From assembly GCA_964403205.1 (NCBI GenBank), contig CAYOER010000005.1, positions 1-42,190 of the forward strand: a stretch of DNA of 42,190 nucleotides, given 5' to 3'. This document shows positions 9,908 through 38,197 of the stretch, piece by piece. Made by a program: the position numbers and the translations under genes. Below the pieces are notes generated by a model. It ran no database searches, was not told the DNA's origin, and worked only from the letters and a program-made list of their open reading frames with translations. Within the stretch, counting starts at the first letter, position 1, and the number at the start of each line of letters is the position of its first letter. This DNA is from an uncultured Candidatus Saccharibacteria bacterium (GTDB lineage: Bacteria; Patescibacteriota; Minisyncoccia; Phycocordibacterales; PALSA-1337).

Positions 9908-9933
9908 GGAGAGATTTTATCATAAAATTCAGC

Positions 9934-9962
9934 TTGACTCTAGTCGTTTGGTTTGCTATATT
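9934..9962 (+). promoter_or_regulatory. Sigma70 promoter divergent from alaS
   Basis: TTGACT (9934-9939), 17 bp spacer, TATATT (9957-9962), with TG at 9954-9955. Confidence 0.55.
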
Positions 9963-10515: not shown

Positions 10516-10624
10516 AATAAGATCCCTTTCCATCAATGTTCTTGCTACAACCTCACCCCAAAAGGGTTGAAAAAGCATGGTTTGTTCAGGTTGTTCTAAC
10601 TAAAAATAGTATACTATAATCAAC

Positions 10625-21375: not shown

Positions 21376-22488
21376 ATGAAAAAATATATCATTGTTTTTA
21401 TCCTTATTTTAAGCATCAGTATAATACCAAATCTTGCAAATGCAGAATCATTGTTCAATATAAATAGATCAAAACAGTATAATAATACTGCTAGTATATT
21501 CTCTGTTATTCAGGAAAGATTCAGCTCTTTCTTTAGTAATAAAAAGAAAACTGTTACCATTCCTCCGAAGAAAGTAGAAACTATGCCTTCCACAAACAAT
21601 TCTGTAACATCTATCACAGAAAACAAAGAAACTTCTTCACTAGAGAATGAAAGATTGATTAAGGTTATGAATAATGCAGATACTGTAAATACTACAAATA
21701 GTAATACCAATAGTAAGAATAATATTCAGATAAAAGATGAGAAGAGTAGGCCGGTGACTCAGGCAACAATTGATCCTATTTCACTAAAGTCATATTCTTC
21801 TACACCGACAATAACAGGAACTGCTTATAATGTTTCGGAACCTTTCGGTATCTCCATAAGTAATAGTGGTGGAAAGGTTTGGGCTAGCGGAGATATAAAT
21901 ATCAATAATAATCGTTGGACAACAACAGTTAATGAAACTCTTAGTGCTGGTAAATATTTTGTACATGTCTATTCAAACAATATATTGGTAACAAGTGGGA
22001 TACTCGCAATTGCATCTTCACCTAGTCCAAGTAATACAAACAATAATATTATAATAACTGTACCTGCTAACCCTGCGACTGAACCTATGACTATAACAAG
22101 ACCGACAATTACAAGACCCGTCACTACGCCAAACTCCGCTCCGATGATAACGAAAGTAACTCCATCAGAGAGAACTATAAGAGTCGGTGAAAAAGGAATA
22201 TGGACAGTCTATGCTATAGATAAAGAAGGAAATAGCATGACATATAAGGCATATTGGAGAGATGGCCAATATGGTACAAATGTAGAGGACTTTGGTAATG
22301 GGAATACCATGACTCATGCATTCGATAAAGCTGGTATATATAATGTAATATTTGCAGTAAGAGATAGCGATGGTAATGTCACTCCAATAGGAGTAAAGGT
22401 AAGTGTTGTAGAAAATACTGCATTACCAGTACCATCAGTGAATACAGAGCCTGTTATTTCTACTCCTAGGAGTGATGAGAGTATATAA
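21376..22488 (+). CDS. Secreted protein with Ig-like and PKD-like domains
   Basis: Signal peptide ending ANA; TPTITGTA Ig-like segment; THAFDKAGIYNVIFAVRDSDG PKD-like; T/N/P-rich linkers. Confidence 0.75.
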   Translation: MKKYIIVFILILSISIIPNLANAESLFNINRSKQYNNTASIFSVIQERFSSFFSNKKKTVTIPPKKVETMPSTNNSVTSITENKETSSLENERLIKVMNNADTVNTTNSNTNSKNNIQIKDEKSRPVTQATIDPISLKSYSSTPTITGTAYNVSEPFGISISNSGGKVWASGDININNNRWTTTVNETLSAGKYFVHVYSNNILVTSGILAIASSPSPSNTNNNIIITVPANPATEPMTITRPTITRPVTTPNSAPMITKVTPSERTIRVGEKGIWTVYAIDKEGNSMTYKAYWRDGQYGTNVEDFGNGNTMTHAFDKAGIYNVIFAVRDSDGNVTPIGVKVSVVENTALPVPSVNTEPVISTPRSDESI

Positions 22489-25085: not shown

Positions 25086-25394
25086 TTAGAGACTTAGTAT
25101 GAGTGGATATGCGAAGAAACTCAAAGCAAAATACACAATACAACGTACCAATGTCCATGCTTTCTGATTCTTTGACAAAGCACCATTGTTATACAATGCC
25201 AACACTATGTTCTTGAAAAGTAAAATAGGAAGTACAAAATATGATACGAATACCCACTGTTGTAGCCATAATTGCAATAGATCCTGTGGTATCTTCCCAG
25301 AGAAAACGATTATTATTGATACAATCAAATAAAAGAACTCTATTATCCCCAATACCCCTAGAACACTTTTTGTTTTTTGATTTTGTAGATTCAT
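25086..25394 (-). CDS. Hypothetical membrane protein (about 3 TM)
   Basis: 102-aa hydrophobic ORF. Confidence 0.6.
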   Translation of the reverse strand: MNLQNQKTKSVLGVLGIIEFFYLIVSIIIVFSGKIPQDLLQLWLQQWVFVSYFVLPILLFKNIVLALYNNGALSKNQKAWTLVRCIVYFALSFFAYPLILSL

Positions 25395-25467
25395 ATTATA
25401 TTTTATTAATAATTATTTATACCCAATATTCTAACATAGTATGTAAGAAAAGTAATCAACAGCCTCC

Positions 25468-25497
25468 CTATCTCCCCATATTATATAACTGTTGTAC
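25468..25497 (-). repeat. Orphan copy of the LamG gene 3' end (encodes VQQLYNMGR*)
   Basis: CTCCCCATATTATATAACTGTTGTAC at 25472-25497 is identical to 26035-26060. Confidence 0.9.
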
Positions 25498-25740
25498 TTA
25501 TTGAGTGTAAAATAGTCTCTTTATTTTTTCTTCATCAAAGCATCTCTCTAAAGATCTAATAATTGATTTGAACGTTCCTCTATCTAGTTCACTGTGCAAT
25601 GGAACAGTTATATAATGAGAAGTAGTAGTAACTTTTTTAACAAGCCTTACATGACTTCCTATCTGTCTTATTTCTGAAAAACCTTCAGAGAGAAGGATTC
25701 TTACAAGTTCTTTACCAGAGATTCTACGGAGTTTAGGCAT
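25498..25740 (-). CDS. hicA: HicA family toxin
   Basis: MPKL..ISGKELVRIL..GF..RQIGSH..TVPLH..L.RGT..SI. Confidence 0.92.
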   Translation of the reverse strand: MPKLRRISGKELVRILLSEGFSEIRQIGSHVRLVKKVTTTSHYITVPLHSELDRGTFKSIIRSLERCFDEEKIKRLFYTQ

Positions 25741-25957
25741 GAGCTATTCGAGAGAAATCCATATTCATCATTATAGGAGGAAAACCATCGGCCTTATTTC
25801 CTAGAATATCGCCCAGACTAACTTCTACTGCTTCCTTTATATTAGAAAGAAGATCTTCGAAGGACTTACCTTGCGTGTATATAGATACATCATCTGCTGA
25901 TGCTATATAGAAACCATCTTCTCCTTTTGAGATTTGGAAAGTTATGATTTTATTCAT
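25733..25957 (-). CDS. HicB-like antitoxin (short, no DNA-binding domain)
   Basis: EDGFYIA...YTQGKSFEDLLSNIKEAV; overlaps the hicA start by 8 nt. Confidence 0.85.
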   Translation of the reverse strand: MNKIITFQISKGEDGFYIASADDVSIYTQGKSFEDLLSNIKEAVEVSLGDILGNKADGFPPIMMNMDFSRIAHA

Positions 25958-26030
25958 TATATTTGTATATTAGCATAGTAGAATATACAAAATCAAGTTA
26001 ATAAAATTACTTTCAACTTTATAACTTCTT

Positions 26031-28121
26031 TTACCTCCCCATATTATATAACTGTTGTACCTCGCTTGCCGATAGCGCGCGGTTGTAGATGCGAACGTCG
26101 TCGAGGGAGCCACCGAATAAACCAGAGGTAGGACCATACCCTATGCCAATATATCTAAATATTATAGCCGTTGTAGATAGACTTGTAATTTGTTCAGAAT
26201 AAACACCATCTTTATATAAAGACAATGTGCCTTGACCATCAGACATTATGGTAATATATTGCCATTTATTTATAACGCTCACTGATGAATTATTTGAAAA
26301 AGATCTGACAGTATAATTAGGAGCACCTTCTCTATATACAAATCTTTTAAACCCGGAGTCTGCCACACCTAAATATTTAAACGTTCCTCCTAGCCCGGTA
26401 AAGGAATTATTTCCACTAACTACACCATTCCAATTCATCCAAGTAGAAAATGTCCATGGTACACTATCACCAAAAGTGATATCACTACTAATGCGTAAAT
26501 AATCATCCCCCCCATCAAACCTCCCCGCCTGCCCCACTTTTCCCTTCGTATAGAAAGTAGAAGAAGCGATATTTATGGGATTACCATGATTACCCTGACC
26601 ACTTTTGTCTCGTATTACTCCATTTACTACATCTTTACCATCGAAGGTCCAATATCCTACTAAACCGCAAGATAATCCTGAAGTACAGTTTGTATTCTTT
26701 ACTGGTTGGGAAGCAGAGACCTTGGAACCGGCGGTACTATTGTATAGTTGAGATACCTCACTTGCTGATAGCGCGCGGTTGTAGATGCGGATGTCGTCGA
26801 TAAGGCCATTAAATGTTCTATCAGTAGTATTTGAATTCCCTATTATCATATTCGTCGTACCCACTTCTGGTGTACCACTATTTTGATTAGCAGAGCCACT
26901 TAATTGACCATTAATATAAAGATTTGCAATCCCAGAACCATTTCTCGTAACAGTCACAAATACCCATTGATTATATGGTAACGAACCGGCTGCTGATTGT
27001 GCATTATTAGTTCCGCCATTACTAGATAAAACAATTATATTTGCTCCTAGACGAAATATTGTCTTGTTATTATCAAAGATACGCCCAGCAACCTGACCAA
27101 TACTTTTTGCATATATCCATGCAGAATATGTACCTGCGGTAGCACCAATTAAATCACTTCCTGTTTTTATTTTGTCATCCCCCCCATCAAACCTCCCAGC
27201 CTGCCCGATCTTCCCCTTCGTATAGAAAGTAGAAGTAGCGATATTTATAGGGTTACCATGATTACCATTTCCACTTTTATCTCTGATTACTCCATTTACT
27301 ACATCTTTACCATCGAAGGTCCAGTAACCCACTAGTCCGCAGGATAGTCCTGATGTACAGTTTCTGTTTTTTACTGGTTGGGAGGCAGAGACCTTGGAAC
27401 CGGCGGTACTATTGTATAGTTGGGATACCTCACTTGCCGATAGCGCGCGGTTGTAGATGCGAACGTCGTCGATCATACCAGAAGAAGGTCCTGAACCACT
27501 ACCTGATGCACCAATAAAAGTTTGAGTTGCTCCTGATGCTGGTGTACCACAGTTCTGGTCGGCAGTACCTGATAAAACACCATTTATATAAATATTGGAG
27601 ACACCACTACCATCTCTTGTAACAAGGACAAATACTTGTCTATTTAAAGGTATTGAATTAGTAGCACTTCTAACATTAGAGGTACAGGAGAATATTAATC
27701 TATTACTAGTTGAATCAACTGAAAATGTTGTATTACCACTTGTATTAGTAGTAATAGTACCACTTTGTTTCTTAGGATTTATCCAAGCTGATACAGAAAG
27801 AGTACCAGTACCTAACATATCAGAATTAATCATAACTCTGTCATCCACCCCATCAAACCTCCCCGCTTGCCCTACCTTACCAATATCATAAAAAGTAGAA
27901 GTAGCGATATTTATGGCATTACCATGATTCCCATTACCACTCTTATCCCTAATCACCCCATTCACCACATCTTTCCCGTCAAATGTCCACCAGCCGACAA
28001 GGCCAGAATTCATAGTAAGGGCATTACTAGGAACACCGATACTAGAAGCCAGGGCATGATCAGGATACAGAAAAAAAGCAGAGAAAATAATAGACAATAA
28101 AATAATCTTTGCAGATTTCAT
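26031..28121 (-). CDS. Secreted protein with three LamG-like (ConA lectin jelly-roll) domains
   Basis: Signal peptide; three copies of GLVG[WY]WTFDG...DD[VI]RIYNRALS. Confidence 0.9.
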   Translation of the reverse strand: MKSAKIILLSIIFSAFFLYPDHALASSIGVPSNALTMNSGLVGWWTFDGKDVVNGVIRDKSGNGNHGNAINIATSTFYDIGKVGQAGRFDGVDDRVMINSDMLGTGTLSVSAWINPKKQSGTITTNTSGNTTFSVDSTSNRLIFSCTSNVRSATNSIPLNRQVFVLVTRDGSGVSNIYINGVLSGTADQNCGTPASGATQTFIGASGSGSGPSSGMIDDVRIYNRALSASEVSQLYNSTAGSKVSASQPVKNRNCTSGLSCGLVGYWTFDGKDVVNGVIRDKSGNGNHGNPINIATSTFYTKGKIGQAGRFDGGDDKIKTGSDLIGATAGTYSAWIYAKSIGQVAGRIFDNNKTIFRLGANIIVLSSNGGTNNAQSAAGSLPYNQWVFVTVTRNGSGIANLYINGQLSGSANQNSGTPEVGTTNMIIGNSNTTDRTFNGLIDDIRIYNRALSASEVSQLYNSTAGSKVSASQPVKNTNCTSGLSCGLVGYWTFDGKDVVNGVIRDKSGQGNHGNPINIASSTFYTKGKVGQAGRFDGGDDYLRISSDITFGDSVPWTFSTWMNWNGVVSGNNSFTGLGGTFKYLGVADSGFKRFVYREGAPNYTVRSFSNNSSVSVINKWQYITIMSDGQGTLSLYKDGVYSEQITSLSTTAIIFRYIGIGYGPTSGLFGGSLDDVRIYNRALSASEVQQLYNMGR

Positions 28122-28256
28122 GGGTAAATTATAGCATGAAAATATAATAAAATAACTTTATAACTTTTTACTTTATAACTTCTTTTACCTCCCCATATTA
28201 TATAACTGCCGTACCTCTGTTGCCGATAGCGCGCGGTTGTAGATGCGGATGTCGTC
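28085..28256. repeat. Duplicated gene junction (gene end, ACTTT tandem, promoter, next start); second copy at about 34432-34610
   Basis: Near-identical TAGACAATAAAATAATCTTT..GATTTCAT..ATTATAGCATGAAAATATAATAAAATAACTTT.. at both sites. Confidence 0.85.
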
Positions 28257-30389
28257 CATGAGACCATTAGAAGTACGACTTCCAGCAGTATTTCCACCAA
28301 TAATAGCTGCACTTGCACTATCATCACTACGTGTCCCAATAGGCGTAATAGCTGTTGGTAATTGATAAAATATTCCATCAATATAAAGAGAGGGGACATT
28401 GGTAGTATCATCAGAATTGTAACTCAAAACAATATGGTGCCATTTATTGAATGAAATAGGCGGAGTTGTGCCGTTATATTTCCATTTACCCGTATTACCC
28501 GAAAATGTAACATTAAATTCAAACCCTGTTTCTCCTACGAAATGACTAGAAAAAGCAAAGAGAACCCAATTCTTACCAATCCAAAAACCTGCTTCACCTT
28601 CTCCTGCAGATTTCGGATTTACCCAATATGATATCGTACCACCACCATCCCAAATATTTTGTATAGAAGATGTATTGGAAATAGTAATATAATCATCCCT
28701 CCCATCAAACTTCAACCCCTGCCCGACCTTCCCTGCCTTCACCGCTGTAGATGTAGAAGTGAAACCGATCATAGCACCATTATTACCATTACCACTTTTA
28801 TCTTTTACATTCTGTATCATATCCGGCCCATCGAATGTCCACCAGCCGACAAGACCTTGATTGAGATTGCTGGGGCCAGGAAAAGAGATATTTTGTTTAC
28901 CAGATTTACTACTATCATAGACTTTCTTTATTTCAGTGGCAGACAGAGCCCTATTATATACTCTTATATCATCTAGATATCCATACCAATTCCCATTACC
29001 TTGATCATCACGCGCACCGAGTACAGAAGCTCCACCGGGAGAGTCAGTATTGGTACTTGTTGCAATAGAAAGTCCATCTTTATATAGATCTACATTATTA
29101 CCATCAAAGACATAGCAAACATGTACCCATGTATTATTGCTAAATACTGCAGAACTAGACTGGGAACCTTTCGCTGTTGCTCCAGAACGATAAGAGACAA
29201 ATAATTTACCATCATTTACTATACTCCCCATACGTATACCATTACTAGCATCAATATAGAAATTCAAGAATGTCTGATTCCATCCTGCAGGAGAAACTGT
29301 CAGATCTTTATTATATGCCCATGCACAGGATGAACTTGGATTACTAACTGTTGTTATTGGATTAGAAATTAGACCGATAGAAGTGACATTACCGTCAAAG
29401 GTAAGTGCCTGACCTACCTTACCTTGTCTCACTACAGTAGAAGTCGCTCCGAAATATTGGAAATATCCATGCTTGCCATTACCACTGGTGTCTCTGACAT
29501 TCGGTGTTAGATTTGCCCCATCGAAGGTCCAATATGCTACTAGATTATTATTTATACTATCAAAACTTGATGGGGTATTTATTTTGCTACCTTTGGTGGC
29601 ATTATAAAGTTGAGCAATTTCTTGGGCACCTAGTGCGCGGTTGTAGATGCGGATGTCGTCTATTGTTGCATTAGCGAATGCTGAAGCGTCATTATTAGTC
29701 CCAATCTTAAGAGGTGTACTGATGTTCGTATTAAGTGCTCCTCCTGTCCCATTAGTAGTAGCTTTCTGTACGCCATTAATATAGACATACGAGGCAGGGT
29801 CGTTATACATAACAACTACATGTGTCCATTGACCTAGTGGTATTGGGCAAGTAGCGGAGTTACAATTAATATCTAGCTGACTACCCCCAGTTCCAGAACC
29901 TCCATATCTCCAAATAGTTGCTATATCAAAAAAACTGCTACCGTATACACTGAATAATCTCCCTGTGCTTCCACTGTTACGATAAATAAAGTGACCCGTC
30001 TTATTATTATTTTTAACCCAAAAAGCTATGGTAGCCCCACTTGCACCTTCTAGGGAATCAAGGGCACTCGAATCAGGCGCATCCACATAATCATTACTAC
30101 CATCAAACTTTAGTGCCTGCCCGACCTTACCCGTAACCACCGCACTAGAAGTAGAAGTGAAACCAATCATAGAACCATGATTACCATTACCACTTTTATC
30201 TTTTACATTACTTATCATATCCGGCCCATCGAATGTCCACCAGCCGACTAGACCTTGATTGAGATTATTGGGACCAGGAAGTGAGGAGTTTATACCACTA
30301 GCAGAAAGGGCGATGGAAGGTAATAGGAGTATTGCTATAAAGACAATACTAGATTGTATTAAATATTTCAAAATAAAATTATTCCCCAT
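28185..30389 (-). CDS. Secreted protein with three LamG-like domains
   Basis: Signal peptide; three copies of WTFDG...DDIR[IV]YNRAL. Confidence 0.9.
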   Translation of the reverse strand: MGNNFILKYLIQSSIVFIAILLLPSIALSASGINSSLPGPNNLNQGLVGWWTFDGPDMISNVKDKSGNGNHGSMIGFTSTSSAVVTGKVGQALKFDGSNDYVDAPDSSALDSLEGASGATIAFWVKNNNKTGHFIYRNSGSTGRLFSVYGSSFFDIATIWRYGGSGTGGSQLDINCNSATCPIPLGQWTHVVVMYNDPASYVYINGVQKATTNGTGGALNTNISTPLKIGTNNDASAFANATIDDIRIYNRALGAQEIAQLYNATKGSKINTPSSFDSINNNLVAYWTFDGANLTPNVRDTSGNGKHGYFQYFGATSTVVRQGKVGQALTFDGNVTSIGLISNPITTVSNPSSSCAWAYNKDLTVSPAGWNQTFLNFYIDASNGIRMGSIVNDGKLFVSYRSGATAKGSQSSSAVFSNNTWVHVCYVFDGNNVDLYKDGLSIATSTNTDSPGGASVLGARDDQGNGNWYGYLDDIRVYNRALSATEIKKVYDSSKSGKQNISFPGPSNLNQGLVGWWTFDGPDMIQNVKDKSGNGNNGAMIGFTSTSTAVKAGKVGQGLKFDGRDDYITISNTSSIQNIWDGGGTISYWVNPKSAGEGEAGFWIGKNWVLFAFSSHFVGETGFEFNVTFSGNTGKWKYNGTTPPISFNKWHHIVLSYNSDDTTNVPSLYIDGIFYQLPTAITPIGTRSDDSASAAIIGGNTAGSRTSNGLMDDIRIYNRALSATEVRQLYNMGR

Positions 30390-30411
30390 CCCCTAATTAT
30401 ATCATATTCAC

Positions 30412-31275
30412 TTATTTCTTAATCATCGCCACTTTATACATTCCCTCTTTTTCTGCTAGATATATTTCTCTGGCTTGGGATACTGTGAATGCTTTTTTAT
30501 ATACACGAATATTATCTAAATAATATCTATTCGTAGGACCTCCGACTAATGAGCTACCTAATATATATAAATTATTTGAATTATAATGACAAACTCCATC
30601 AGTGAAACTAGAAAAATTAGTAACTTGTTTACCATTAATATACATAGCTACTTTATTATTATCACATACTGCCATAACATGATACCATTGATTAATTTTT
30701 ATAGGAAAACTTGGAAGTGGTGGTGAAAGTACTACTCCAGATGAAGATACAGTAGTAAATACTAAATTACTACTACTATCCATATAGAATCTCCAACGTC
30801 CAGGAATAGTATTTATAAAAAGGTTAGAAAGATATTCTATACTATTTGTACCTGTAGTATTTATCCAAAAAGAAACAGAATAAATATTTGTTGGCCCTCC
30901 AATTATAAGAGAAGGAGATGAAGCAGTTTTACCACTATCACCCGAAACAGATATTACTTTACCAATTTTAAATGGGTTTGTAGTATTAGTAATAATTCCT
31001 GGGTTAACTAAAAAGAGATTGTTTCCATTCCCTGTTTGATCTATTATATTATTAGAACCATCATGACTATCAAATTCCCAAGAAAGTACTAGATCATCAT
31101 TCCATGCAGAATATGTATGAGTATCGAATGTCTGCCCAGCTGCCACACCACTCCTCTCTCTAGTACCAGATAGACTAGCTAGAACAACAGAAGAGAGTAG
31201 ACCTATAATAGAAATTACTACGAGTAATTCTATGAGGGTAAAGGCGCGAGAATGTTTATAAGATATCTTTATCAT
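30412..31275 (-). CDS. Type IV pilin-like protein fused to a LamG domain
   Basis: Class III signal RA/FTLIELLVVISIIGLLSS; C-terminal WYHVMAV...LDNIRVYKKA. Confidence 0.88.
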   Translation of the reverse strand: MIKISYKHSRAFTLIELLVVISIIGLLSSVVLASLSGTRERSGVAAGQTFDTHTYSAWNDDLVLSWEFDSHDGSNNIIDQTGNGNNLFLVNPGIITNTTNPFKIGKVISVSGDSGKTASSPSLIIGGPTNIYSVSFWINTTGTNSIEYLSNLFINTIPGRWRFYMDSSSNLVFTTVSSSGVVLSPPLPSFPIKINQWYHVMAVCDNNKVAMYINGKQVTNFSSFTDGVCHYNSNNLYILGSSLVGGPTNRYYLDNIRVYKKAFTVSQAREIYLAEKEGMYKVAMIKK

Positions 31276-32171
31276 TATTTATTATTTATCTTTCCATTAT
31301 CTCCTATTGCCAGATTATCAAATTTATCTTTTTCTGCTAAATATAATTCTTCTGCCATAGCAACAGTGAATGCTTTATTATAAATACGAACATTATCTAC
31401 ATAATATGGAAAAACACTGCCATTAAGAAGTCTTGCATTCATTATAATAGGAACAGTGGATAAATAACTACAATTACCACCAGAAGATAGTAATTTGGAA
31501 TCTGTAGCTACTTTACCATTCACATATAAAGTACCTTTTGTACCGTTACATACTGCCATTGCATGATACCATTGCCCTGACTTTATTAATATTTGAGGAA
31601 CAGACGGAGAAAAACCAGAATTAATATTGGATCTAGCTAAGAAAGATAATTTTCCGCCGTCTTGTATAGAGATCATCCATTTCCCAGCTGCTAAAGGAGA
31701 GTAGAAATTGGAAATTATTTCAACACTACCAAACTCACCACCTCTTGGATATATCCAAAGCGAAATAGAAAAATCATTAACTATGGGAGTAGGACTATTT
31801 ATTGGACTACCGGTAACTGCAGTTTTGCTTGTATTTACAATATCTAATACCTTTCCATTCTTAAAAGGATTATAATTACTATCAGTAACTAGAGAAGTAG
31901 TATCCGTAAGTGTAAGATTATTCCCATTCCCCGTCTGATCTTGCACCGTAGTACCACTATCGGTATCGAAGTCCCATGCAAGAACAAGATCCTCATACCA
32001 TGCACCATATGTATGTCTATCGAATGTCTGCCCAGAAGCTAGAGTACCCTTTTCCCTAACACCAGAAAGAGTTGCGAGGATAATGGATGATAGCATACCT
32101 ATAATAGATATAACCACAAGCAATTCTATAAGGGTAAAGGCTTTCGATGAATTATTTTTATCTATTTTCAT
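31275..32171 (-). CDS. Type IV pilin-like protein fused to a LamG domain
   Basis: KA/FTLIELLVVISIIGMLSS; WYHAMAV...VDNVRIYNKA; paralogue of the neighbouring gene. Confidence 0.88.
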   Translation of the reverse strand: MKIDKNNSSKAFTLIELLVVISIIGMLSSIILATLSGVREKGTLASGQTFDRHTYGAWYEDLVLAWDFDTDSGTTVQDQTGNGNNLTLTDTTSLVTDSNYNPFKNGKVLDIVNTSKTAVTGSPINSPTPIVNDFSISLWIYPRGGEFGSVEIISNFYSPLAAGKWMISIQDGGKLSFLARSNINSGFSPSVPQILIKSGQWYHAMAVCNGTKGTLYVNGKVATDSKLLSSGGNCSYLSTVPIIMNARLLNGSVFPYYVDNVRIYNKAFTVAMAEELYLAEKDKFDNLAIGDNGKINNK

Positions 32172-32284
32172 TTCTCTATATTCAATTTATTGATAATTAT
32201 AGCATAAACATTATCTATATCTATATAATATTTCCACAGATTGTATTACTTTATAACTTTTTACTTTATAACTTTATAACTCTT

Positions 32285-34468
32285 TTACCTCCCCTGATTA
32301 TATAACTGCTTCACCTCGCTTGCCGACAGCGCGCGGTTGTAGATGCGGACGTCGTCGATGGTGCCATCTTGATTCTGTGTGCTTACAGAAATAGCTCCTA
32401 TTCTTATATTATATGAACCAGAGACAGGAGTCCCGGAATTTTGATTGGCTGTACCAACTAAAATACCATTTATATAAAAATTAGCTTGATTACTATTATT
32501 TCTTGTAACAGTTACGTGATACCAAGTATTAAGTAATAATGAATTTGTCCCAGAATGAGATGTTGTAGTAAAATTATTACTAGAAAATTCTAATCGCTTA
32601 TTAACACCGACAGTACGAAAAATTGTACTCCCATTAGTTAAAATCTGTCCAATAGAAACAAAAGATTTTAAATATATCCATGAAGAAATGGTCACATCAG
32701 TTGTACTAATTACAGATGATGATGTTTGAACATAGTCATCCCCCCCATCAAACCTCCCCGCCTGACCGATCTTACCCGGCACATAGAAAGTAGAAGTAGA
32801 GATACTGATTGCATTACCATGATTACCATTTCCACTTTTATCTAGCACTACGCCATTGTTCATATCTTTCCCATCGAAAGTCCAATAACCGACTAGTCCA
32901 CAGGAGAGTCCTGTGGTGCAGGAGGTTGGGCCGACCTTGGGAGAGGAGGCTTGCTTGGTTGCTGCACCCATATTGTAAAGGTAGGTGATTTCACTTTGGG
33001 AGAGGGCACGCATATAAAAACGTACATCATCTATTTTACCATCATGATAACTAGAACCACATCCATTGATAGCACCTATACAAGGTGAAAATGAACTATC
33101 TAATACAATATCTGATATAGCACCAGAATTAGATGAACTTATAACACCATTAATATATAAAAATACATTTGTACCCTGCCTTACAGCAATAACATGCGTC
33201 CATTTCCCAGTCGTTAAAGTGTTCGTTGGAGTTGTAGCTGCTACTGTCGCAATTCCGTAGTCTGTTATAGTAAAACTTAACCTATTCAGTGTACTTACAA
33301 TTATACTCGCAGAATCTCCCGAAGCAACTTTGTCATCATATAGAGCAGAACCAAATGCTACTCTATCATAAAACATCCATCCTGCTATAGTAAAATCTGA
33401 AGTACCTGGTGATAACTTAGGACTACTAGACGGTAATTTCACACCATCGTTTACCCCGTCAAAATTTACCGCCTGCCCCAGCTTACCTGGCGCATAGAAA
33501 GTAGAAGAAGCGATATTTATAGGGTTCCCATTATTCCCATTTCCACTTTTATCTAGCACTACACCATTACGCATATCCTTCCCATCGAATGTCCAATAAC
33601 CGACTAGGCCACAAGATAGTCCTGAAGTGCAGGAGGTTGGGCCGACCTTGGGAGAGGAGGCTTGCTTGGTAGCTGCACCCATATTGTAAAGGTAGGTGAT
33701 TTCTGATTGAGTGAGGATGCGGTTATAGATGCGAACATCATCTAGACCAGCATCTAGGTAATCCGATATTCCATTTGCACTACCAAGCATTAAATTACCG
33801 GATTCATCGGAATTTGCTGTTGCTCCATCTGTAGCAGATAAATTTGTCTGTAAAACTCCATTTCTATAGACCACAACACCAGTAGATAAAGTCATAGAAC
33901 CATCCCAAGTAAGGACTATATGTTGCCAAACATTATTGACTAATAAACTATTATAATTTTTAGAGGAGTCTGTGCCACCCTCTTTTGCGAAGCGCAAGCG
34001 TGCTGGATTTGTAGTAGAATTCTTTTGTATTTGCCAATATCCAGTACCATTTGAAGCTGCCCCTTTCTGGATTATGCTATTAATAGTATTCGTATCTGGT
34101 CTAATCCAAAAAGCCACAGTCATACCTCCTCCACCTTGACTCTGTATATCATCAAGTGATGAACCTGTGCCTGCATTGATATAATCATTACTACCGTCAA
34201 ATTTTAGTCCTTGTCCTATTTTCCCAGGTTTATAGAAAGTAGAAGTAGAGATACTGATTGCATTACCATGATTACCATTTCCACTTTTATCTAGCACTAC
34301 GCCATTGTTCATATCTTTCCCGTCAAAGGTCCAATAACCGACTAGGCCAGAACTGAGAGAAAGAAGATTGGGAGAAACACCGATCTTGGAAGCAGAGGCG
34401 GTGTGGGGGGAAAAGAAAAAAGTGAAAAAGAAAATAGTAGACAATAAAATAATCTTTACAGATTTCAT
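32285..34468 (-). CDS. Secreted protein with three LamG-like domains
   Basis: Signal peptide; three copies of GLVGYWTFDGKDM...DDVR. Confidence 0.9.
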   Translation of the reverse strand: MKSVKIILLSTIFFFTFFFSPHTASASKIGVSPNLLSLSSGLVGYWTFDGKDMNNGVVLDKSGNGNHGNAISISTSTFYKPGKIGQGLKFDGSNDYINAGTGSSLDDIQSQGGGGMTVAFWIRPDTNTINSIIQKGAASNGTGYWQIQKNSTTNPARLRFAKEGGTDSSKNYNSLLVNNVWQHIVLTWDGSMTLSTGVVVYRNGVLQTNLSATDGATANSDESGNLMLGSANGISDYLDAGLDDVRIYNRILTQSEITYLYNMGAATKQASSPKVGPTSCTSGLSCGLVGYWTFDGKDMRNGVVLDKSGNGNNGNPINIASSTFYAPGKLGQAVNFDGVNDGVKLPSSSPKLSPGTSDFTIAGWMFYDRVAFGSALYDDKVASGDSASIIVSTLNRLSFTITDYGIATVAATTPTNTLTTGKWTHVIAVRQGTNVFLYINGVISSSNSGAISDIVLDSSFSPCIGAINGCGSSYHDGKIDDVRFYMRALSQSEITYLYNMGAATKQASSPKVGPTSCTTGLSCGLVGYWTFDGKDMNNGVVLDKSGNGNHGNAISISTSTFYVPGKIGQAGRFDGGDDYVQTSSSVISTTDVTISSWIYLKSFVSIGQILTNGSTIFRTVGVNKRLEFSSNNFTTTSHSGTNSLLLNTWYHVTVTRNNSNQANFYINGILVGTANQNSGTPVSGSYNIRIGAISVSTQNQDGTIDDVRIYNRALSASEVKQLYNQGR

Positions 34469-34538
34469 AACTAGATTATAGCATGAAAATATAATAAAAT
34501 AACTTTCAACTTTATAACTTTTTACTTTATAACTTCCC

Positions 34539-36788
34539 CTACCTCCCCATATTATATAACTGCTTCACTTCACTTGCCGATAGCGCGCGGTTGTAGATGC
34601 GAACGTCGTCGAGGGAGCCGTTAAAATTTCGAGAATTGGCACTTACATTAGCGCCGATATGTGCTGATGAAGTAGTATCTGACACTATGTTACCAACACC
34701 ATCAGTTGGACTTGTGTATGCTGTTTCAACTCCATTAATATAAAATTTTATTCCTGTAGCATCTGCAGTACCATCCCATGTCATTGTAAAATAAGTCCAT
34801 TTATTTAAAGGTATAGCATTCACAGTTGATACAACTCTACTTAGATTAGTTGCGCCATCATAATCACGATAAAACCATGGGGTTAGTATTCCAGAGGAAC
34901 CAGCGCTATCTATTGATAAAAACCAACCATTCAATCCAAAACCAGTACTTTTCTCCATTATATATCCAGTATTATTAGACCCAGAACTTTTTGGGTATAC
35001 CCAAGAACTTATGGTAATAGCAGGCAAATCATTGAGACTACTAGGTGTACCAGCATTCACATAATCATTCGTTCCATCAAACCTCCCCCCCTGCCCCAAC
35101 TTCCCCTGAGTATAGAAAGTAGAAGTAGAAATGTTAATTAAATTTCCATTATTACCATTTCCACTTTTATCTAAAATTACACCATTACGAATATCTTGAT
35201 TATTGAAGGTCCAGTAGCCGACTAAGCCTGAGTCTAGTGAATTGACATTAGGTCTTAATGCTTGAGTTTCTTGGAGTTTAGTACCTGCGCCTTGCATATA
35301 TAGTTGCTTGATTTCTGAAGTAGACAGGGCGCGGTTGTAGATGCGGACGTCGTCGATAGAACCGTCAAATACTCTTGAACCACCAGCTACATTATTACCG
35401 ATGATCATATTCCTAGCGACATCAGTTACACGACTTGCATCTCCATCTGTCTGTGTAGAGTAGGTTTGTTCTACACCATCCTTATAAATATGAACATTTG
35501 TTGCAGTAGTGCTACCATCCCATGTTACAACTAAATGAACCCATTTATTAAAATTAGAAGTTGAAAATGTAGCAGAAGAAGTACGAACAACAAGATTTGT
35601 CACATCATAATCCACATTAAATTCTATTGTTCCACTTAAAGTTGAGCGGATATAAAATTCCCAGCCATTCGCATCGAAACCAGTTGATTTTTCTACTATA
35701 CCGCCAAGACTAGTCCCTCCAAATGATTTTGCATTTACCCATGCTGATATAGACATAGCTGACAAATTATTGAGACTACTAGGTGTACCAGCATTCACAT
35801 AATCATTCGTTCCATCAAACCTCCCTGCCTGCCCCAACTTCCCCTGAGTATAGAAAGTAGAAGAAGCGATACCAATTGGATTACCATGATTACCATTTCC
35901 ACTTTTATCTAGTATTACACCATTACGGATATCTTGATTATTGAATGTCCAGTAGCCGACTAGGCCTGAGTCTAGTGAATTGACATTAGGTCTTAATGCT
36001 TGAGTTTCTTGGAGTTTAGTACCTGCACCTTGCATGTAGAGTTGTTTGACTTCGGAAGCAGATAGAGCGCGGTTGTAGATGCGGACGTCGTCAATAATAC
36101 CATTAAACCTAGTATCATTATTTCCACGCTCTCCAATATGAAGGTCTCTGCCATTACTTACATACTGTGCCAATGGAATACCTGTAGTATTTTGTCCAAT
36201 AGATACACCATTTTTATAAATCTCTAAAGATACAGACGGAGTAAAAACTGCTACATAATGATTCCAAATATCATTATTATGTAAATCATTTACCGTAAGA
36301 GAAATGGTTTCGGTACTGCTAGTAGCGATGGTGAATGCTACATCATTACTATTGTTAATTCCAAAACTATATCCTCTAGTGGAACTCCCCCCTTGTGTTC
36401 CCAAACTACCAGTCGTAGCACTTGAACCTTTTCCTTTCAACCAAACTGAAATAGTCATGGCTCCTGTCGGCTTGAAAGAAGGATCGTTAGAAACATTCAC
36501 AACATCATCCCCCCCATCAAACTTCCCCCCTTGCCCCAGCTTTCCCTGAGTATAGAAAGTAGAAGAAGCGATATTTATTGCATTACCATGATTACCATTA
36601 CCACTTTTATCTCTAATTACACCATTTACTACATCATTGCCATCGAAACTCCAATACCCTACTAGACCATTCGTAAGAGACATAACATTTGGTGATACGC
36701 CGATAGTCGTGCCGGCGGAGGCGGTATGGGGAAAGGAGAAAAGGCTAATAAAAAATATAAATATTATTAAAGTAAGGTTTTTATTCAT
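34539..36788 (-). CDS. Secreted protein with three LamG-like domains
   Basis: Signal peptide; three copies of GLVGYW...DDVRIYNRALS. Confidence 0.9.
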   Translation of the reverse strand: MNKNLTLIIFIFFISLFSFPHTASAGTTIGVSPNVMSLTNGLVGYWSFDGNDVVNGVIRDKSGNGNHGNAINIASSTFYTQGKLGQGGKFDGGDDVVNVSNDPSFKPTGAMTISVWLKGKGSSATTGSLGTQGGSSTRGYSFGINNSNDVAFTIATSSTETISLTVNDLHNNDIWNHYVAVFTPSVSLEIYKNGVSIGQNTTGIPLAQYVSNGRDLHIGERGNNDTRFNGIIDDVRIYNRALSASEVKQLYMQGAGTKLQETQALRPNVNSLDSGLVGYWTFNNQDIRNGVILDKSGNGNHGNPIGIASSTFYTQGKLGQAGRFDGTNDYVNAGTPSSLNNLSAMSISAWVNAKSFGGTSLGGIVEKSTGFDANGWEFYIRSTLSGTIEFNVDYDVTNLVVRTSSATFSTSNFNKWVHLVVTWDGSTTATNVHIYKDGVEQTYSTQTDGDASRVTDVARNMIIGNNVAGGSRVFDGSIDDVRIYNRALSTSEIKQLYMQGAGTKLQETQALRPNVNSLDSGLVGYWTFNNQDIRNGVILDKSGNGNNGNLINISTSTFYTQGKLGQGGRFDGTNDYVNAGTPSSLNDLPAITISSWVYPKSSGSNNTGYIMEKSTGFGLNGWFLSIDSAGSSGILTPWFYRDYDGATNLSRVVSTVNAIPLNKWTYFTMTWDGTADATGIKFYINGVETAYTSPTDGVGNIVSDTTSSAHIGANVSANSRNFNGSLDDVRIYNRALSASEVKQLYNMGR

Positions 36789-36797
36789 TTAATAAAA

Positions 36798-37226
36798 TTA
36801 AATATTTTTAGATTTCAAATATATTTTGATACAATCTACATACTTTTCATATAATGGTACAAACTCTTTTGCTGAATTATAAAAAATAAAATTATCTTCA
36901 TCAAAATCGTATTCATGTATTAAAACATTTCTAAGATTAGAACTTTTTATGAATTTTGGCAATAAGTCTTCTTCTAAGACTTTTAATGATGCCATTCTTT
37001 TGAAAGATTCTCTATATGTATCAGGTGTTTCTGCTCCCATCTCCGCAATTATATGAGTATTTATATCGCTAGCGATTTCTACAATCAATTGGAAATTCCT
37101 TTCTGCAGAGCGGATATTAGTAAATATTTTTTTAAATTCAGAAAAAGGCAATACTAAAAGTTGATTTAATTCAATCAATAATACCTTCATTTGTTCTAGC
37201 TTTTTTAGTATCAGATCATGCGACAT
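36798..37226 (-). CDS. HEPN/DUF86 (HepT-like) ribonuclease toxin
   Basis: AERNFQL.VE...DI..H and the R-X4-H motif in RNVLIHEY. Confidence 0.9.
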   Translation of the reverse strand: MSHDLILKKLEQMKVLLIELNQLLVLPFSEFKKIFTNIRSAERNFQLIVEIASDINTHIIAEMGAETPDTYRESFKRMASLKVLEEDLLPKFIKSSNLRNVLIHEYDFDEDNFIFYNSAKEFVPLYEKYVDCIKIYLKSKNI

Positions 37227-37569
37227 AATTTTCTAATATTACACGCTCACGCATACGACGGAATTTTGCAGTATCCTGATATTCCTTAAAGGATCTTACC
37301 TTGAATCTAATAAAATCATATACATCACCTTCTATCAATTTACCTTTCTTTGCAACTTCAAATTTCAATATTGGCGATGCAGTAGAGAGATCAACAAGAT
37401 CGATTTTATCTTCATTGATATTAAACTTTTTTGATAAAAAATGAGATAAATCTGTACGTGAAGCAAGGGTTAATGGATTATAAGAAAAAACTCCAAAATC
37501 AAAATCTGAAGTAGATATTGCCCTACCAGAAATCTGAGAACCAAATGCTATTATAATCGGTTTTTTCAT
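37216..37569 (-). CDS. Minimal nucleotidyltransferase (MntA-like) antitoxin
   Basis: FGSQISGRAISTSDFD (GS-X10-DXD) and IDLVDL; overlaps the HEPN gene; start could be 37584 or 37605. Confidence 0.88.
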   Translation of the reverse strand: MKKPIIIAFGSQISGRAISTSDFDFGVFSYNPLTLASRTDLSHFLSKKFNINEDKIDLVDLSTASPILKFEVAKKGKLIEGDVYDFIRFKVRSFKEYQDTAKFRRMRERVILENYVA

Positions 37570-37591
37570 ATTATATATTTGCATTATACCA

Positions 37592-38197
37592 TTATTCCTC
37601 CTCATTTACCACCTCCTCTTCCTGATCAAACACCTCTTCTTGACTGACAGCACTATTGACAGCACTAGTATCGAATTTCCAGCTAGAAAGCACGGCTTTT
37701 AGAACTTCATCATATTTTATATATGTACGGATCTGATACAGATTCCTATTGAGGACGAACCATACCTCCCTACTCCTACCGTCAAAGGCACTATCATTGC
37801 TGATAAAAGCTACACCTTTACCTGCATCTCCGAGTATAACATCTTGTGGAGATTCTATGAGTAGATTAGGTAGATCCTTCCTTATCCTCTCTACTGTCAG
37901 AGCTGGTATGTCCTCATCTATAGGGCTGATACTCACCTGGAAACCTTTACCTGTAGTTATCTCCTGTACCACTATATTTTCCATTCCATCTTCTGTAGTG
38001 AATGATGATGCAGAGAATGAACTAGGATAATCAAAAGTGAAATTCAATGTTGGATGACTATATGTCTCTGTTGTTGTAGCAATAGTAGATAATGTGGATT
38101 CAGCTGGTAGGAAAGCATCTTCTTTTTTATTTATAAAATATGCTATTCCTATTACGATGATGATTATAATTATTATGAATTTTATCTTTTTTGACAT
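37592..38197 (-). CDS. Membrane-anchored PsbP-like hypothetical protein
   Basis: N-terminal TM; TYSH..LNFTFDYP and C-terminal VLSSWKF pattern; acidic tail. Confidence 0.6.
   Translation of the reverse strand: MSKKIKFIIIIIIIVIGIAYFINKKEDAFLPAESTLSTIATTTETYSHPTLNFTFDYPSSFSASSFTTEDGMENIVVQEITTGKGFQVSISPIDEDIPALTVERIRKDLPNLLIESPQDVILGDAGKGVAFISNDSAFDGRSREVWFVLNRNLYQIRTYIKYDEVLKAVLSSWKFDTSAVNSAVSQEEVFDQEEEVVNEEE

What the first reader, a model, noticed from the sequence alone, without database searches (positions are those of the whole stretch)
26031..36788. LamG adhesin array with constant DNA frameworks and hypervariable cores: candidate recombinational surface-diversification system
Seen: four co-oriented secreted genes carry 12 LamG domains. 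Most begin with a shared framework (GLVG[YW]WTF...DKSGNGNHGN...GK.GQ...FDG) and end in DD[VI]RIYNRALS..E..QLY, while the cores between are very divergent. Framework DNA is near-identical between domains: about 32783-32872 vs 34232-34321, 35035-35310 vs 35770-36050, and 26600-26800 vs 27270-27470. Linkers are homogenised within a gene but differ between genes. Established: LamG/ConA-like folds bind glycans or proteins, and cultured CPR are host-attached episymbionts. Inference: the cores are exchangeable cassettes swapped or gene-converted through the constant borders, giving a host-recognition repertoire.
Basis: partly seen in the sequence, partly recalled or inferred. Interest (0 to 1): 0.85.

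Follow-up and report, generated by a model that had tools for sequence, protein, structure and literature searches.

The report
Mosaic LamG surface-protein genes swapping cores
A tiny groundwater bacterium carries a cluster of secreted three-domain lectin-like genes whose domain borders stay alike while whole domain cores are replaced, lost or copied by ordinary recombination, which could be how such episymbionts vary what they stick to.

Summary
Four minus-strand genes each encode a signal peptide plus three Laminin_G_3 domains.

The recombination reading is largely supported, on an evolutionary scale.
- Synonymous sites in the frameworks are more alike within this genome than between genomes. 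Cores are near saturation.
- Core trees and N-framework trees disagree (AU tests).
- A 403-nt core is identical between unit A3 and the middle unit of a fifth gene on another contig, while its borders differ.
- Close relatives keep the gene-B backbone and middle core (0.72-1.00 identity), but carry unrelated cores (0.24-0.27) at positions 1 and 3.
- One sibling allele is gene A minus exactly unit 2.

The cores are not hypervariable: they are old domain types with orthologues in sister species. Nothing indicates a programmed switch: every copy is a full gene, no invertible structure or integrase was found, and the genome's one DGR targets another gene. The adhesin or host-recognition role is inferred only.

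Within-population switching could not be tested, because only fragmented k=31 contigs were available. The pattern extends to the 218 Patescibacteria homologues examined.

The parts
26031..28121 (-). Gene A: signal peptide plus 3 LamG units (A1 27399-28004, A2 26727-27338, A3 26034-26666)
   Evidence: PF13385 scores 243 bits in 3 stretches.
28185..30389 (-). Gene B: signal peptide plus 3 LamG units (B1 29589-30254, B2 28902-29546, B3 28188-28856). Its linkers are not homogenised.
   Evidence: Its orthologous backbone is found in P0124, P0125, P0126 and G018y.
30412..31275 (-). P1: type IV pilin-like protein carrying a LamG domain
   Evidence: N_methyl 31 bits (cut-off 21.2) and Laminin_G_3 64.8 bits. 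TIGR02532 27.1 bits (cut-off 16.3). Translation.
31275..32171 (-). P2: second LamG pseudopilin, a tandem paralogue of P1
   Evidence: It shares 74-75% nt blocks with P1 (families D10, D13, D14).
32285..34468 (-). Gene C: signal peptide plus 3 LamG units (C1 33671-34348, C2 32960-33610, C3 32288-32899)
   Evidence: The C1 core is orthologous to G018x1 (support 99/95).
34539..36788 (-). Gene D: signal peptide plus 3 LamG units (D1 36021-36668, D2 35283-35966, D3 34542-35228)
26104..26506 (-). A3 core tract, 403 nt exactly identical to the core of unit E2 on contig C19 (6597-6999). The flanking frameworks and linker differ at many synonymous sites.
   Evidence: In a simulation, 0 of 200000 placements gave a run of 403 or more with 48 mismatches in 772 nt.
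26503..26802 (-). Gene A junction module (C-framework, linker, N-framework), repeated at 27175-27474
32783..32872 (-). C3 N-framework block, 90 nt exactly identical to the C1 N-framework at 34232-34321
35035..35310 (-). Gene D junction module, repeated at 35773-36048
   Evidence: 92.4%. Exact runs of 63 and 57 nt.
28257..28681 (-). B3 core. In relative L028/P0125 this stretch is replaced by an unrelated core between borders that are about 91-96% identical.
   Evidence: the match stops at 28682 and resumes at 28256; core3 identity 0.27.
28082..28177 (-). Inter-gene junction B>A (A's signal-peptide start, the TGCTATAAT box 7 nt before the ATG, and an AAGTTATAAAGT-type repeat), repeated at 34429-34524 (D>C)
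   Evidence: family D12: 86% over 96 nt. Sequences. Tandem repeats.
36798..37605 (-). HepT/MNT toxin-antitoxin pair bordering the array. It lies at a different place in the array of relative L028.
   Evidence: PF01934, PF18765; 90.5% nt to L028 1099-1624, where it follows the B orthologue.
25498..25740 (-). HicA-type toxin gene at the other border of the array
   Evidence: PF07927, 52.3 bits.

Best explanation
What it is. The locus is a tandem array of paralogous secreted 3xLamG (Laminin_G_3) proteins with two LamG pseudopilins. It belongs to a large Patescibacteria/Paceibacteria family. Each roughly 215-aa unit has a family-wide conserved N-terminal framework (about 55 aa, the first strands of the jelly roll), a C-terminal framework (about 25 aa, the last strand plus a helix), and a roughly 140-aa core that forms most of the sandwich.

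How it works. The junction modules (C-framework, linker, next N-framework, about 300 nt) and the gene ends are the only stretches alike enough for homologous recombination. Two consequences follow.
1. They are kept alike at the DNA level within a gene and genome by gene conversion.
2. They act as homology arms, through which whole cores are replaced, copied to another position or gene, or deleted.

The outcome is a set of alleles and paralogues with one backbone and different core combinations.

Shown and inferred. The mosaic pattern, the incongruent trees, the synonymous-site signal and the allelic series are shown. Three things are inferred: general RecA-type recombination as the machinery (RecA present), natural transformation as a route for exchange between lineages (ComEC and type IV pilus ATPases present), and a role of the proteins as lectin-like adhesins on the cell surface or pilus. 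No evidence points to a programmed, high-frequency switch.
For: 1. Synonymous sites. The share of identical codons at identical amino acids in the N-framework is 0.69 within a gene (448/649) and 0.65 within the genome (2113/3260). Between genomes it is 0.47 (14043/29849), and 0.45 is expected from codon usage. For the C-framework the values are 0.58 and 0.56 against 0.37. For cores they are 0.48-0.49 against 0.44.

2. Best match of each of 49 units, counted as [same gene, same genome, other genome]: N-framework 27/7/15; core 6/9/34.

3. Core tree. It pairs C1 with G018x1 (99/95) and B2 with G018y2 (100/99), and groups {D2, D3, G015_1} (98/97) and {A1, A2, C3, G018y3} (95/97). Core data reject units of C forming one clade (p 0.0019) and units of B forming one clade (p 9e-6).

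4. N-framework DNA tree. It puts 11 units of A, C, D and E in one clade (90/91). It rejects the core clades {A1, A2, C3, G018y3} (p 0.006), {D2, D3, G015_1} (p 0.002) and {A3, E2} (p 0.027).

5. A3 and E2 share a 403-nt exact core inside borders of about 85-88% identity, with A3 in third position and E2 in second.

6. Gene-B backbone. Leader, frameworks and linkers are 0.72-1.00 identical to P0124, P0125 and P0126, and core2 is 0.89-0.99. Core1 is 0.27 in all three and core3 is 0.27 in two. P0125 and P0126 are identical through unit 2, then core3 is 0.24.

7. At the DNA level, L028 matches the window at 95.6% up to the B3 framework/core border. About 386 nt are then unrelated, and the match resumes at 91%. 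Housekeeping neighbours are only 74.6% (G6PD) and 84.6% (YchF) identical.

8. L028b/P0024 is a 2-unit gene with a D1-like core (77%) and an A2-like core (60%) on an A-type linker. In G018, x2 and y1 share a core (81% aa) at different positions.

9. P0005 equals gene A minus exactly unit 2 (224 aa), with no other substitution.

10. Family-wide, in 218 proteins and 648 units. Within-protein unit pairs with N-framework identity of 0.95 or more have cores under 0.3 in 13 of 14 cases; at 0.85-0.95 the count is 78 of 86. Between proteins with N-framework identity of 0.85 or more, core identity is bimodal: 90 pairs at 0.8 or more, 261 under 0.3, and 29 between.

11. RecA, ComEC and PilB/PilT-type ATPases are present.
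Against: Some tests are neutral or go the other way.
- Two of four near-identical sibling alleles keep the same unit order: P0009 vs C and P0020 vs D.
- N-framework data do not reject {C1, G018x1} (p 0.16) or {B2, G018y2} (p 0.43). Core data do not reject D as one clade (p 0.21). Tests on A and E were uninformative because of identical rows.
- The clades tested on the N-framework data were named after the core tree had been seen.
- Gene B and its G018 orthologue do not have homogenised linkers. Only 7 of 13 genes have within-gene linker identity of 0.86 or more.

Assembly is a caveat. The exact-identity tracts (the 403-nt A3/E2 tract and the first 281 nt of L028, which lie at a contig end) and the short-contig variants P0005 and P0006 could be chimeric paths through shared frameworks. 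Public k=31 contigs break at every framework, so they confirm the cores but not their order.

The direction of exchange cannot be told: a core moved in, or a backbone converted around a resident core.

The 218 proteins are the best hits to A and B, not a random sample.

Protein function, localisation and expression are untested.
Confidence: 0.72

Rival explanations
1. Programmed surface variation. The array is a dedicated high-frequency switching system, like pilE/pilS, vlsE or MgPa/MgPar or a shufflon, that reshuffles cores within a clonal population.
For: P0005, a precise one-unit deletion of gene A with no other substitution, looks like a population variant. P0006 carries the same core type next to E's framework in another assembly. 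Public contigs show many joints across the array.
Against: All five copies are full ORFs with start codon and leader. A, C and E carry their own TGCTATAAT box, so there are no promoterless donor cassettes. There are no meaningful inverted repeats (one pair, 29 nt, 72% complementary). No tyrosine recombinase was found in a 94%-complete genome, and serine recombinases were not searched. The only RT belongs to a DGR whose TR/VR pair has no match in the array. Cores are stable enough to have orthologues in other species. Two of four sibling alleles are unchanged. The joints have short sides (21-59 nt) and fit a co-occurring relative.
Confidence: 0.08
2. No recombination. Frameworks are alike only because the fold constrains them, and cores simply diverged fast by point mutation after old duplications.
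For: The framework motifs are conserved across genus and order at the protein level. This shows real purifying selection: 5 invariant and 21 nearly invariant columns, mostly in the frameworks.
Against: Framework synonymous similarity is raised within the genome but not between genomes. The trees are incongruent with AU p of 0.002-0.027. Core identity at similar framework identity is bimodal rather than graded. Linkers are identical within a gene yet differ between genes. A 403-nt exact tract sits between diverged borders.
Confidence: 0.04
3. Assembly artefact. The mosaics are chimeric contigs made by assemblers jumping between paralogues or strains through the shared frameworks.
For: Frameworks hold exact repeats of 24-90 nt. 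The 403-nt A3/E2 repeat exceeds a short read. The exact part of L028 lies at its contig end. P0005 and P0006 come from contigs of 3952 and 2068 nt. A related strain co-occurs in the same samples.
Against: Several mosaics involve partners that are already 18-30% diverged, so they cannot be read-level chimeras. These are G018 x2/y1 within a 109-kb contig and the L028b D1-like/A2-like gene at 74% and 70% nt. The L028-type alleles recur identically in a JGI contig and in ENA proteins from a 70.7-kb contig. Exact repeats within the window are 90 nt or less, shorter than usual reads. The tree and codon statistics do not depend on the exact tracts. P0005 also carries a 15-nt deletion in the leader, which no k-mer shortcut explains.
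Confidence: 0.06
4. Backbone conversion only. Cores never move. Each lineage kept a different old paralogue, and gene conversion merely overwrote the junctions and gene ends so that non-orthologous genes look like alleles.
For: Conversion tracts confined to the alignable junctions are the simplest expectation. Frameworks cluster by genome. The direction of exchange cannot be read from the present data.
Against: This needs five separate tracts per gene converted in step. B, P0124, P0125 and P0126 also share the middle core at 0.89-0.99, and P0125 and P0126 are identical through two whole units, which fits one gene with a replaced third unit better. P0005 is a unit loss, not a conversion. This rival is a variant of the same recombination mechanism, not an alternative to it.
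Confidence: 0.1

Closest known systems
Laminin_G_3 (PF13385) 'LamG domain-containing proteins' of Patescibacteria/Paceibacteria
   Same: Full membership. There were 2315 hits at E of 1e-30 or better among 8000 scored candidates, mostly about 700-750 aa. Sources name them only 'LamG domain-containing protein' or 'hypothetical protein'. Papers speak of CPR LamG/concanavalin proteins as presumed attachment factors (passages read in PMC11310336, and PMC12911398).
   Different: No paper found in four searches describes their three-unit build, homogenised junctions or core exchange.
Gene conversion between expressed paralogous adhesin genes, e.g. Helicobacter pylori babA/babB and sab (recalled; PMC3960876 seen only as a search listing)
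   Same: RecA-type exchange between full-length, expressed paralogues with alike ends and a divergent ligand-binding middle. No silent cassettes.
   Different: Those are single-domain outer-membrane proteins of a pathogen. Here the exchanged piece is the middle of one fold, three per gene, in a tandem array, and exchange also occurs between related lineages.
Mycoplasma genitalium MgPa/MgPar and other cassette systems such as pilE/pilS and vlsE (recalled; PMC2169797 seen as listing and start of abstract)
   Same: A very small genome uses homologous recombination between repeated segments to vary an adhesin. Conserved stretches flank variable ones.
   Different: Those systems have one expression site and many promoterless partial donors, and they switch at measurable rates. 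Here all copies are complete genes and no rate is known.
Diversity-generating retroelements
   Same: The genome has one. The RT is at C7:8495-9478, and a 120-nt TR/VR pair shows 20 of 20 differences at template adenines. DGRs also vary a ligand-binding protein.
   Different: It targets C7:10187-10921. No TR-like match exists in the LamG array. The LamG cores differ throughout, not at adenine-coded sites.
Lectin-like ConA/LamG domains of trans-sialidase, GH43 arabinanase AbnA domain 4 and the Hc-N domain of clostridial neurotoxins (structures)
   Same: Fold-level likeness of the predicted B3 unit. Foldseek E of 5e-10 to 1e-7 and TM (query-normalised) of 0.54-0.68.
   Different: 13-21% identity. 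This is a shared fold only; no catalytic or toxin part is present.

Membership tests
Laminin_G_3 (PF13385) / ConA-like jelly roll | Profile match above Pfam's gathering score | tested here: met
   243, 225.7, 243.5 and 261.6 bits against a cut-off of 27.6, with three stretches in each of A-D. P1 scores 64.8 and P2 60.6.
Laminin_G_3 (PF13385) / ConA-like jelly roll | Beta-sandwich jelly-roll fold | tested here: met
   AF2 model of B3 with pLDDT 79 and pTM 0.81, all-beta plus a C-terminal helix; 295 PDB matches at E of 0.001 or better, led by lectin-like LamG/ConA domains.
Type IV pilin-like proteins (P1 and P2 only) | Prepilin N-terminal cleavage/methylation motif | tested here: met
   PF07963 at 31 and 30.1 bits (cut-off 21.2). 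TIGR02532 at 27.1 bits (cut-off 16.3). A-D lack it.
Silent-cassette antigenic variation (pilE/pilS, vlsE, MgPa/MgPar type) | One expression site plus promoterless, partial donor copies | tested here: not met
   All five copies are complete ORFs with ATG and leader. A, C and E have TGCTATAAT 7 nt before the ATG. The own-genome scan shows no partial LamG fragments beyond whole genes (19 matches, all inside open frames of 282-1029 aa).
Silent-cassette antigenic variation (pilE/pilS, vlsE, MgPa/MgPar type) | Frequent switching within a clonal population | not testable with these tools
   Only k=31 contigs of public runs were on hand. No raw reads were available.
Shufflon / invertase switch | Inverted repeats bounding segments, plus a site-specific recombinase | tested here: not met
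   one weak pair (29 nt, 72%); no PF00589 match in the genome, which is 93.7% complete. All genes are co-oriented. Serine recombinases were not searched.
Diversity-generating retroelement target | VR in the gene matched by a TR next to an RT, with adenine-specific differences | tested here: not met
   The genome's single RT and TR/VR pair is on C7 and has no match to the array.
Paralogue families under concerted evolution and gene conversion | Identity tracts bounded by diverged flanks; incongruent genealogies of neighbouring segments; raised synonymous similarity within the genome | tested here: met
   403-nt tract, 0 of 200000 in simulation; AU tests; 0.65-0.69 against 0.47.
TafC family fimbrial protein (NF052521) | Score above NCBIfam cut-off | tested here: not met
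   99.2 bits against a cut-off of 410. Only LamG-domain likeness.

The most novel reading that the evidence does not exclude
The 3xLamG family is an actively used combinatorial recognition repertoire of Paceibacteria. In this reading the framework-coding DNA is maintained as recombination arms as well as protein. Cores are drawn from a pool shared among paralogues and among co-occurring lineages, with DNA taken up through the type IV pilus and ComEC route. Exchange would be fast enough to give variants within one population (P0005-type unit loss, A3 to E2 core copying), and the core combination would set which host cells or glycans the episymbiont binds.
Probability: 0.25. Interest if true: 0.8.

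Novelty: new variant of a known kind. Interest (0 to 1): 0.6.

Why it matters
How ultra-small episymbiotic bacteria recognise hosts is an open question. LamG/concanavalin-type proteins are only guessed to be involved (passages in PMC11310336 and PMC12911398).

This locus shows that their commonest secreted LamG architecture is modular at the DNA level. Borders are kept alike and whole domain cores are interchangeable, and close relatives form allelic series that differ by one cassette. That yields concrete candidates for specificity determinants: individual cores. It also supplies natural swap series, B/P0124/P0125/P0126, that could be expressed and tested for binding.

There is a practical warning as well. 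These arrays are prone to misassembly and to collapse in metagenome bins.

Tried and rejected
- Promoter and terminator scan. Uninformative: 56 promoter-like sites against 52 expected and 3 terminator-like sites against 6.9 expected. The promoter statement rests on reading only.
- Public runs. Eleven rows from 4 studies, all stored as k=31 contigs, of which four runs were laid. The contigs break at every framework, so they give no verdict on core order, copy number or switching. Joints skipping gene A, P1, gene C and the toxin-antitoxin pair have sides of 21-59 nt and fit a co-occurring relative; they are not used as evidence. The raised depth over 25868-26735 is likewise not used.
- Metagenome scan with G6PD. 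Eight loci, the best at 79% aa, none at strain level. Only L028 held LamG genes next to G6PD, out of eight loci scanned with the unit profile (L027, L028, L029, L031, L032, L033, L015, L016).
- Same-genus loci of G020 and G019 (77% and 76% G6PD identity). No LamG array beside G6PD.
- The Pam pilus of CPR bacteria (preprint 10.64898/2026.03.03.709456, passages read) does not mention LamG or lectin, so it is unrelated. The PamR hit of ORF 21376-22488 is negligible (E 0.0098).
- No Pfam or NCBIfam family was found for the 1316-aa open ORF at 38238-42188.
- AU tests on A and E as clades were uninformative because A3 and E2 are identical rows.
- No binding prediction was run, since no binding claim is made.

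Full report
WHAT IS THERE

The window is a whole 42,190-base contig (C5) of a 729-kb, 43-contig genome rated 93.7% complete. Homologues are named by their sources as Patescibacteria or Paceibacterota proteins. On the minus strand lie, in order:
- a 1316-aa open ORF without a family match;
- a PsbP-like gene;
- an MNT/HepT toxin-antitoxin pair;
- gene D, then gene C;
- two LamG pseudopilin genes, P2 then P1;
- gene B, then gene A;
- a HicA-type gene, then G6PD.

A, B, C and D each encode a leader that reads as a Sec signal peptide (by eye; no tool was available) followed by three Laminin_G_3 domains and nothing else. P1 and P2 have a prepilin methylation motif followed by one LamG domain.

The genome holds 19 Laminin_G_3 matches: 14 in this window, 3 in a fifth 3xLamG gene 'E' (C19:5603-7723), 1 in a 1022-aa protein on C13, and 1 in another pilin on C11. 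Gene E sits, with its own promoter-like box, between rplE and the short rpsN in the ribosomal protein operon.

CHECK OF THE OBSERVATION

I cut the 12 units at the shared motifs and aligned them.
- The first ~55 residues and last ~25 residues are alike in all.
- The ~140 residues between are 15-47% identical.
- Identity along the junction modules is 0.8-1.0 and collapses to 0.2-0.5 on entering the cores.
- Over all 66 pairs, frameworks are 54-90% (N) and 49-95% (C) identical at the DNA level, so 'near-identical' holds for chosen pairs only.
- Linkers are homogenised in A, C, D and E but not in B.

IS THE FRAMEWORK LIKENESS MORE THAN PROTEIN CONSTRAINT?

The framework motifs are conserved across the genus and order, so purifying selection on the protein is real. 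To separate that from DNA homogenisation I compared codons at identical amino acids, leaving out Met and Trp and the identical A3/E2 pair. Values are within-gene / within-genome for this genome.

| Region | Within this genome | Between genomes | Expected from codon usage |
|---|---|---|---|
| N-framework | 0.69 / 0.65 | 0.47 | 0.45 |
| C-framework | 0.58 / 0.56 | 0.37 | - |
| Core | 0.49 / 0.48 | 0.44 | - |

So the frameworks share more recent DNA ancestry inside a genome than the cores do. Relatives show the same trend more weakly (0.57 within a gene, 0.51 within a genome).

GENEALOGIES

I extracted 49 full units from this genome and nine relatives.
- The best match of a unit's N-framework lies in the same gene for 27, elsewhere in the same genome for 7, and in another genome for 15.
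- For the core the counts are 6, 9 and 34.

A core tree of 30 units gives well-supported cross-species pairs: C1 with G018x1, B2 with G018y2, D2/D3 with G015_1, and A1/A2/C3 with G018y3. It rejects the units of C (p 0.0019) and of B (p 9e-6) as clades. D is not rejected (p 0.21), and A and E were uninformative.

The N-framework DNA tree instead groups 11 units of A, C, D and E together (90/91) and the three G015 units together (98/89). It rejects three core-defined clades (p 0.006, 0.002, 0.027) but not {C1, G018x1} (p 0.16) or {B2, G018y2} (p 0.43). These clades were named after I had seen the core tree.

The cores are therefore old domain types retained across species, not hypervariable stretches. 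By my clustering of the values, this genome's 15 units fall into about 11 core types: {A1, A2, C3}, {D2, D3}, {A3, E2} and eight singletons.

DIRECT CASES OF EXCHANGE

(a) A3 and E2. They share 403 nt without a single difference. The 370 nt around them carry 48 differences, 26 codons being synonymous changes. A3 is the last unit of A and E2 is the middle unit of E. Random placement of 48 differences never gave such a run (0 of 200000; longest run 206).

(b) The closest species, G018 (G6PD 84% aa). It has a syntenic but smaller array: large ORF, 3xLamG x, one LamG pilin, 3xLamG y, G6PD. Its x2 and y1 share a core (81% aa, 82% nt) at different positions, while their N-frameworks are 65% nt identical.

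(c) Metagenome contig L028 (G6PD 79% aa). It carries a B orthologue, then MNT/HepT, then a two-unit gene with a D1-like and an A2-like core on an A-type linker, then G6PD.
- Its DNA matches B at 95.6% up to the very border of the B3 framework.
- About 386 nt are then unrelated, and the match resumes at 91%.
- G6PD is 74.6% and YchF 84.6% identical.

(d) Protein searches. P0125 is the same allele as L028, from another collection and a 70.7-kb contig. P0124 and P0126 are further alleles.

| Compared with B | Backbone segments | core1 | core2 | core3 |
|---|---|---|---|---|
| P0124 | 0.76-1.00 | 0.27 | 0.89 | 1.00 |
| P0125 | 0.72-1.00 | 0.27 | 0.99 | 0.27 |
| P0126 | 0.72-1.00 | 0.27 | 0.98 | 0.27 |

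P0125 and P0126 are identical through unit 2, and then differ with core3 at 0.24. With G018y, five relatives show four core types at position 1 and four at position 3 of one backbone.

(e) Sibling alleles.
- P0005 is gene A lacking exactly unit 2 (224 aa) and five leader residues, with no other change. This is the product expected from crossing-over between the two junction repeats 672 nt apart.
- P0006 has E1 and the E2 framework identical to E. It then has an A3-type core with 4 substitutions, then A3's terminal framework and an A-type downstream sequence.
- P0009 (C) and P0020 (D) keep the same order, with 3 and 1 differences.
- So 2 of 4 near-identical alleles differ by a unit-level change.

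FAMILY-WIDE PATTERN

The 218 proteins in hand are the best hits to A and B plus A-E, not a random sample. Of these, 173 have three units, 21 have five, 15 have four and 9 have two; 648 units are full length.

Within one protein:
- 13 of 14 unit pairs with N-frameworks at least 95% identical have cores under 30% identical.
- 78 of 86 such pairs at 85-95% do too.

Between proteins with N-frameworks at least 85% identical, core identity is bimodal: 90 pairs at 0.8 or more, 261 under 0.3, and 29 between. A graded decline would be expected from fast point-mutational divergence. Two classes are expected from kept versus replaced cassettes. Core types recur at other positions in other proteins: B1's nearest core is a unit 2, and B3's nearest after P0124 is a unit 1 of a five-unit protein.

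MACHINERY AND STRUCTURE

- RecA (C12), ComEC (C13) and four to five PilB/PilT-type ATPases are present. No tyrosine recombinase was found.
- The region has no meaningful inverted repeats.
- The genome's single reverse transcriptase belongs to a DGR on C7. Its 120-nt TR/VR pair differs at 20 of 20 template adenines, and it has no match in the array.
- An AlphaFold2 model of unit B3, built from a 46-unit alignment, has pLDDT 79 and pTM 0.81. The N-framework forms the first four strands and the C-framework the last strand plus a helix, both with high confidence. The core holds the remaining strands and the low-confidence loops at residues 85-135 and 170-180.
- Foldseek finds lectin-like ConA/LamG domains: trans-sialidase, AbnA domain 4 and neurotoxin Hc-N. 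This is fold-level likeness only.

MOST LIKELY MECHANISM

Homologous recombination can start and end only where paralogues still align, which is in the junction modules and gene ends.
- Short conversion tracts there keep the junctions alike.
- Paired exchanges in two junctions replace or copy a core.
- Unequal exchange between the junctions of one gene removes or adds a unit.
- DNA from related lineages, possibly taken up by competence, can enter the same way.

This fits the B2 and junction stretch being far more alike between two lineages than their housekeeping genes are. The mosaic pattern itself is shown. The machinery, the rate and the selective agent (host range, or escape from phages that use these proteins) are inferred.

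CAVEATS

- Exact tracts and short-contig variants could be assembly chimeras through the frameworks.
- Public k=31 contigs confirm the window's cores without differences in three samples of two studies, but they cannot bridge the junctions.
- The evidence that does not depend on exact tracts comes from diverged mosaics, codon statistics, tree tests and alleles recurring in independent collections.
- Function is unproven. Literature statements that CPR LamG/concanavalin proteins mediate attachment are themselves conjecture (passages in PMC11310336, and PMC12911398).
- Four literature searches found no description of this architecture or of recombination in it. Supplements were not consulted.

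VERDICT

The recombinational cassette reading is supported as an evolutionary process, possibly also acting at population level, through general recombination. It is not supported as a programmed switch. It is a new variant of the known theme of gene-conversion-driven mosaic adhesin families, found in a lineage where host-recognition determinants are unknown.

Noticed in passing
G000 contig C7:8495-10921 (locus L036): A complete-looking DGR. The RT ORF is at 8495-9478 (-) (PF00078, E 1.8e-21). The template repeat at 9832-9951 and the variable repeat at 10194-10313 differ at 20 positions, all template adenines. The VR lies at the 3' end of a 244-aa gene (10187-10921). It is unrelated to the LamG array.
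   Followed up: partly
G000 contig C19:5603-7723 (locus L035): The fifth 3xLamG gene (E) is inserted, with its own TGCTATAAT box, between rplE and the short zinc-type rpsN inside the ribosomal protein operon. This is an odd place for a surface-protein gene. It was not checked in relatives.
   Followed up: partly
window 28122-28184, 34469-34538; C19 upstream of 5603: A, C and E have TGCTATAAT ending 7 nt before the ATG and no Shine-Dalgarno-like stretch, which would fit leaderless transcripts. B has a GGGGA stretch before its ATG, and D starts 10 nt after HepT's stop. This rests on sequence reading only, as the consensus scan was uninformative.
   Followed up: no
window 25956-26030, 28102-28177, 32244-32281, 34449-34535: Each 3xLamG gene in the window is followed by AT-rich 8- or 15-nt tandem repeats of the AAGTTATAAAGT type. 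These intergenic stretches are 61-86% alike, and gene E on C19 lacks them. Their role is unknown.
   Followed up: no
window 36798-37605 and 25086-25740: Toxin-antitoxin pairs border the array: HepT/MNT on one side, and HicA with a likely partner ORF on the other. In relative L028 the HepT/MNT pair (90.5% nt) lies inside the array after the B orthologue. The closest species, G018, has neither next to its array.
   Followed up: partly
window 38238-42188: A 1316-aa ORF, open at the contig end, has no Pfam or NCBIfam family. An unannotated large ORF occupies the same position upstream of the G018 array. It may be another surface protein.
   Followed up: no
window 37655-38000 and array joints: In the same groundwater runs a more abundant relative co-occurs. 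Its contig depth is about 21-28, against about 4-10 for the window's form, and it is about 92% identical here. One of its joints (37579>28154) matches the L028 gene order.
   Followed up: partly
window 21376-22488 (+): This is the only plus-strand gene of 100 aa or more in the neighbourhood. It is a 370-aa protein with a weak PKD-domain hit (22 bits, below the cut-off of 27) and a negligible PamR hit.
   Followed up: no
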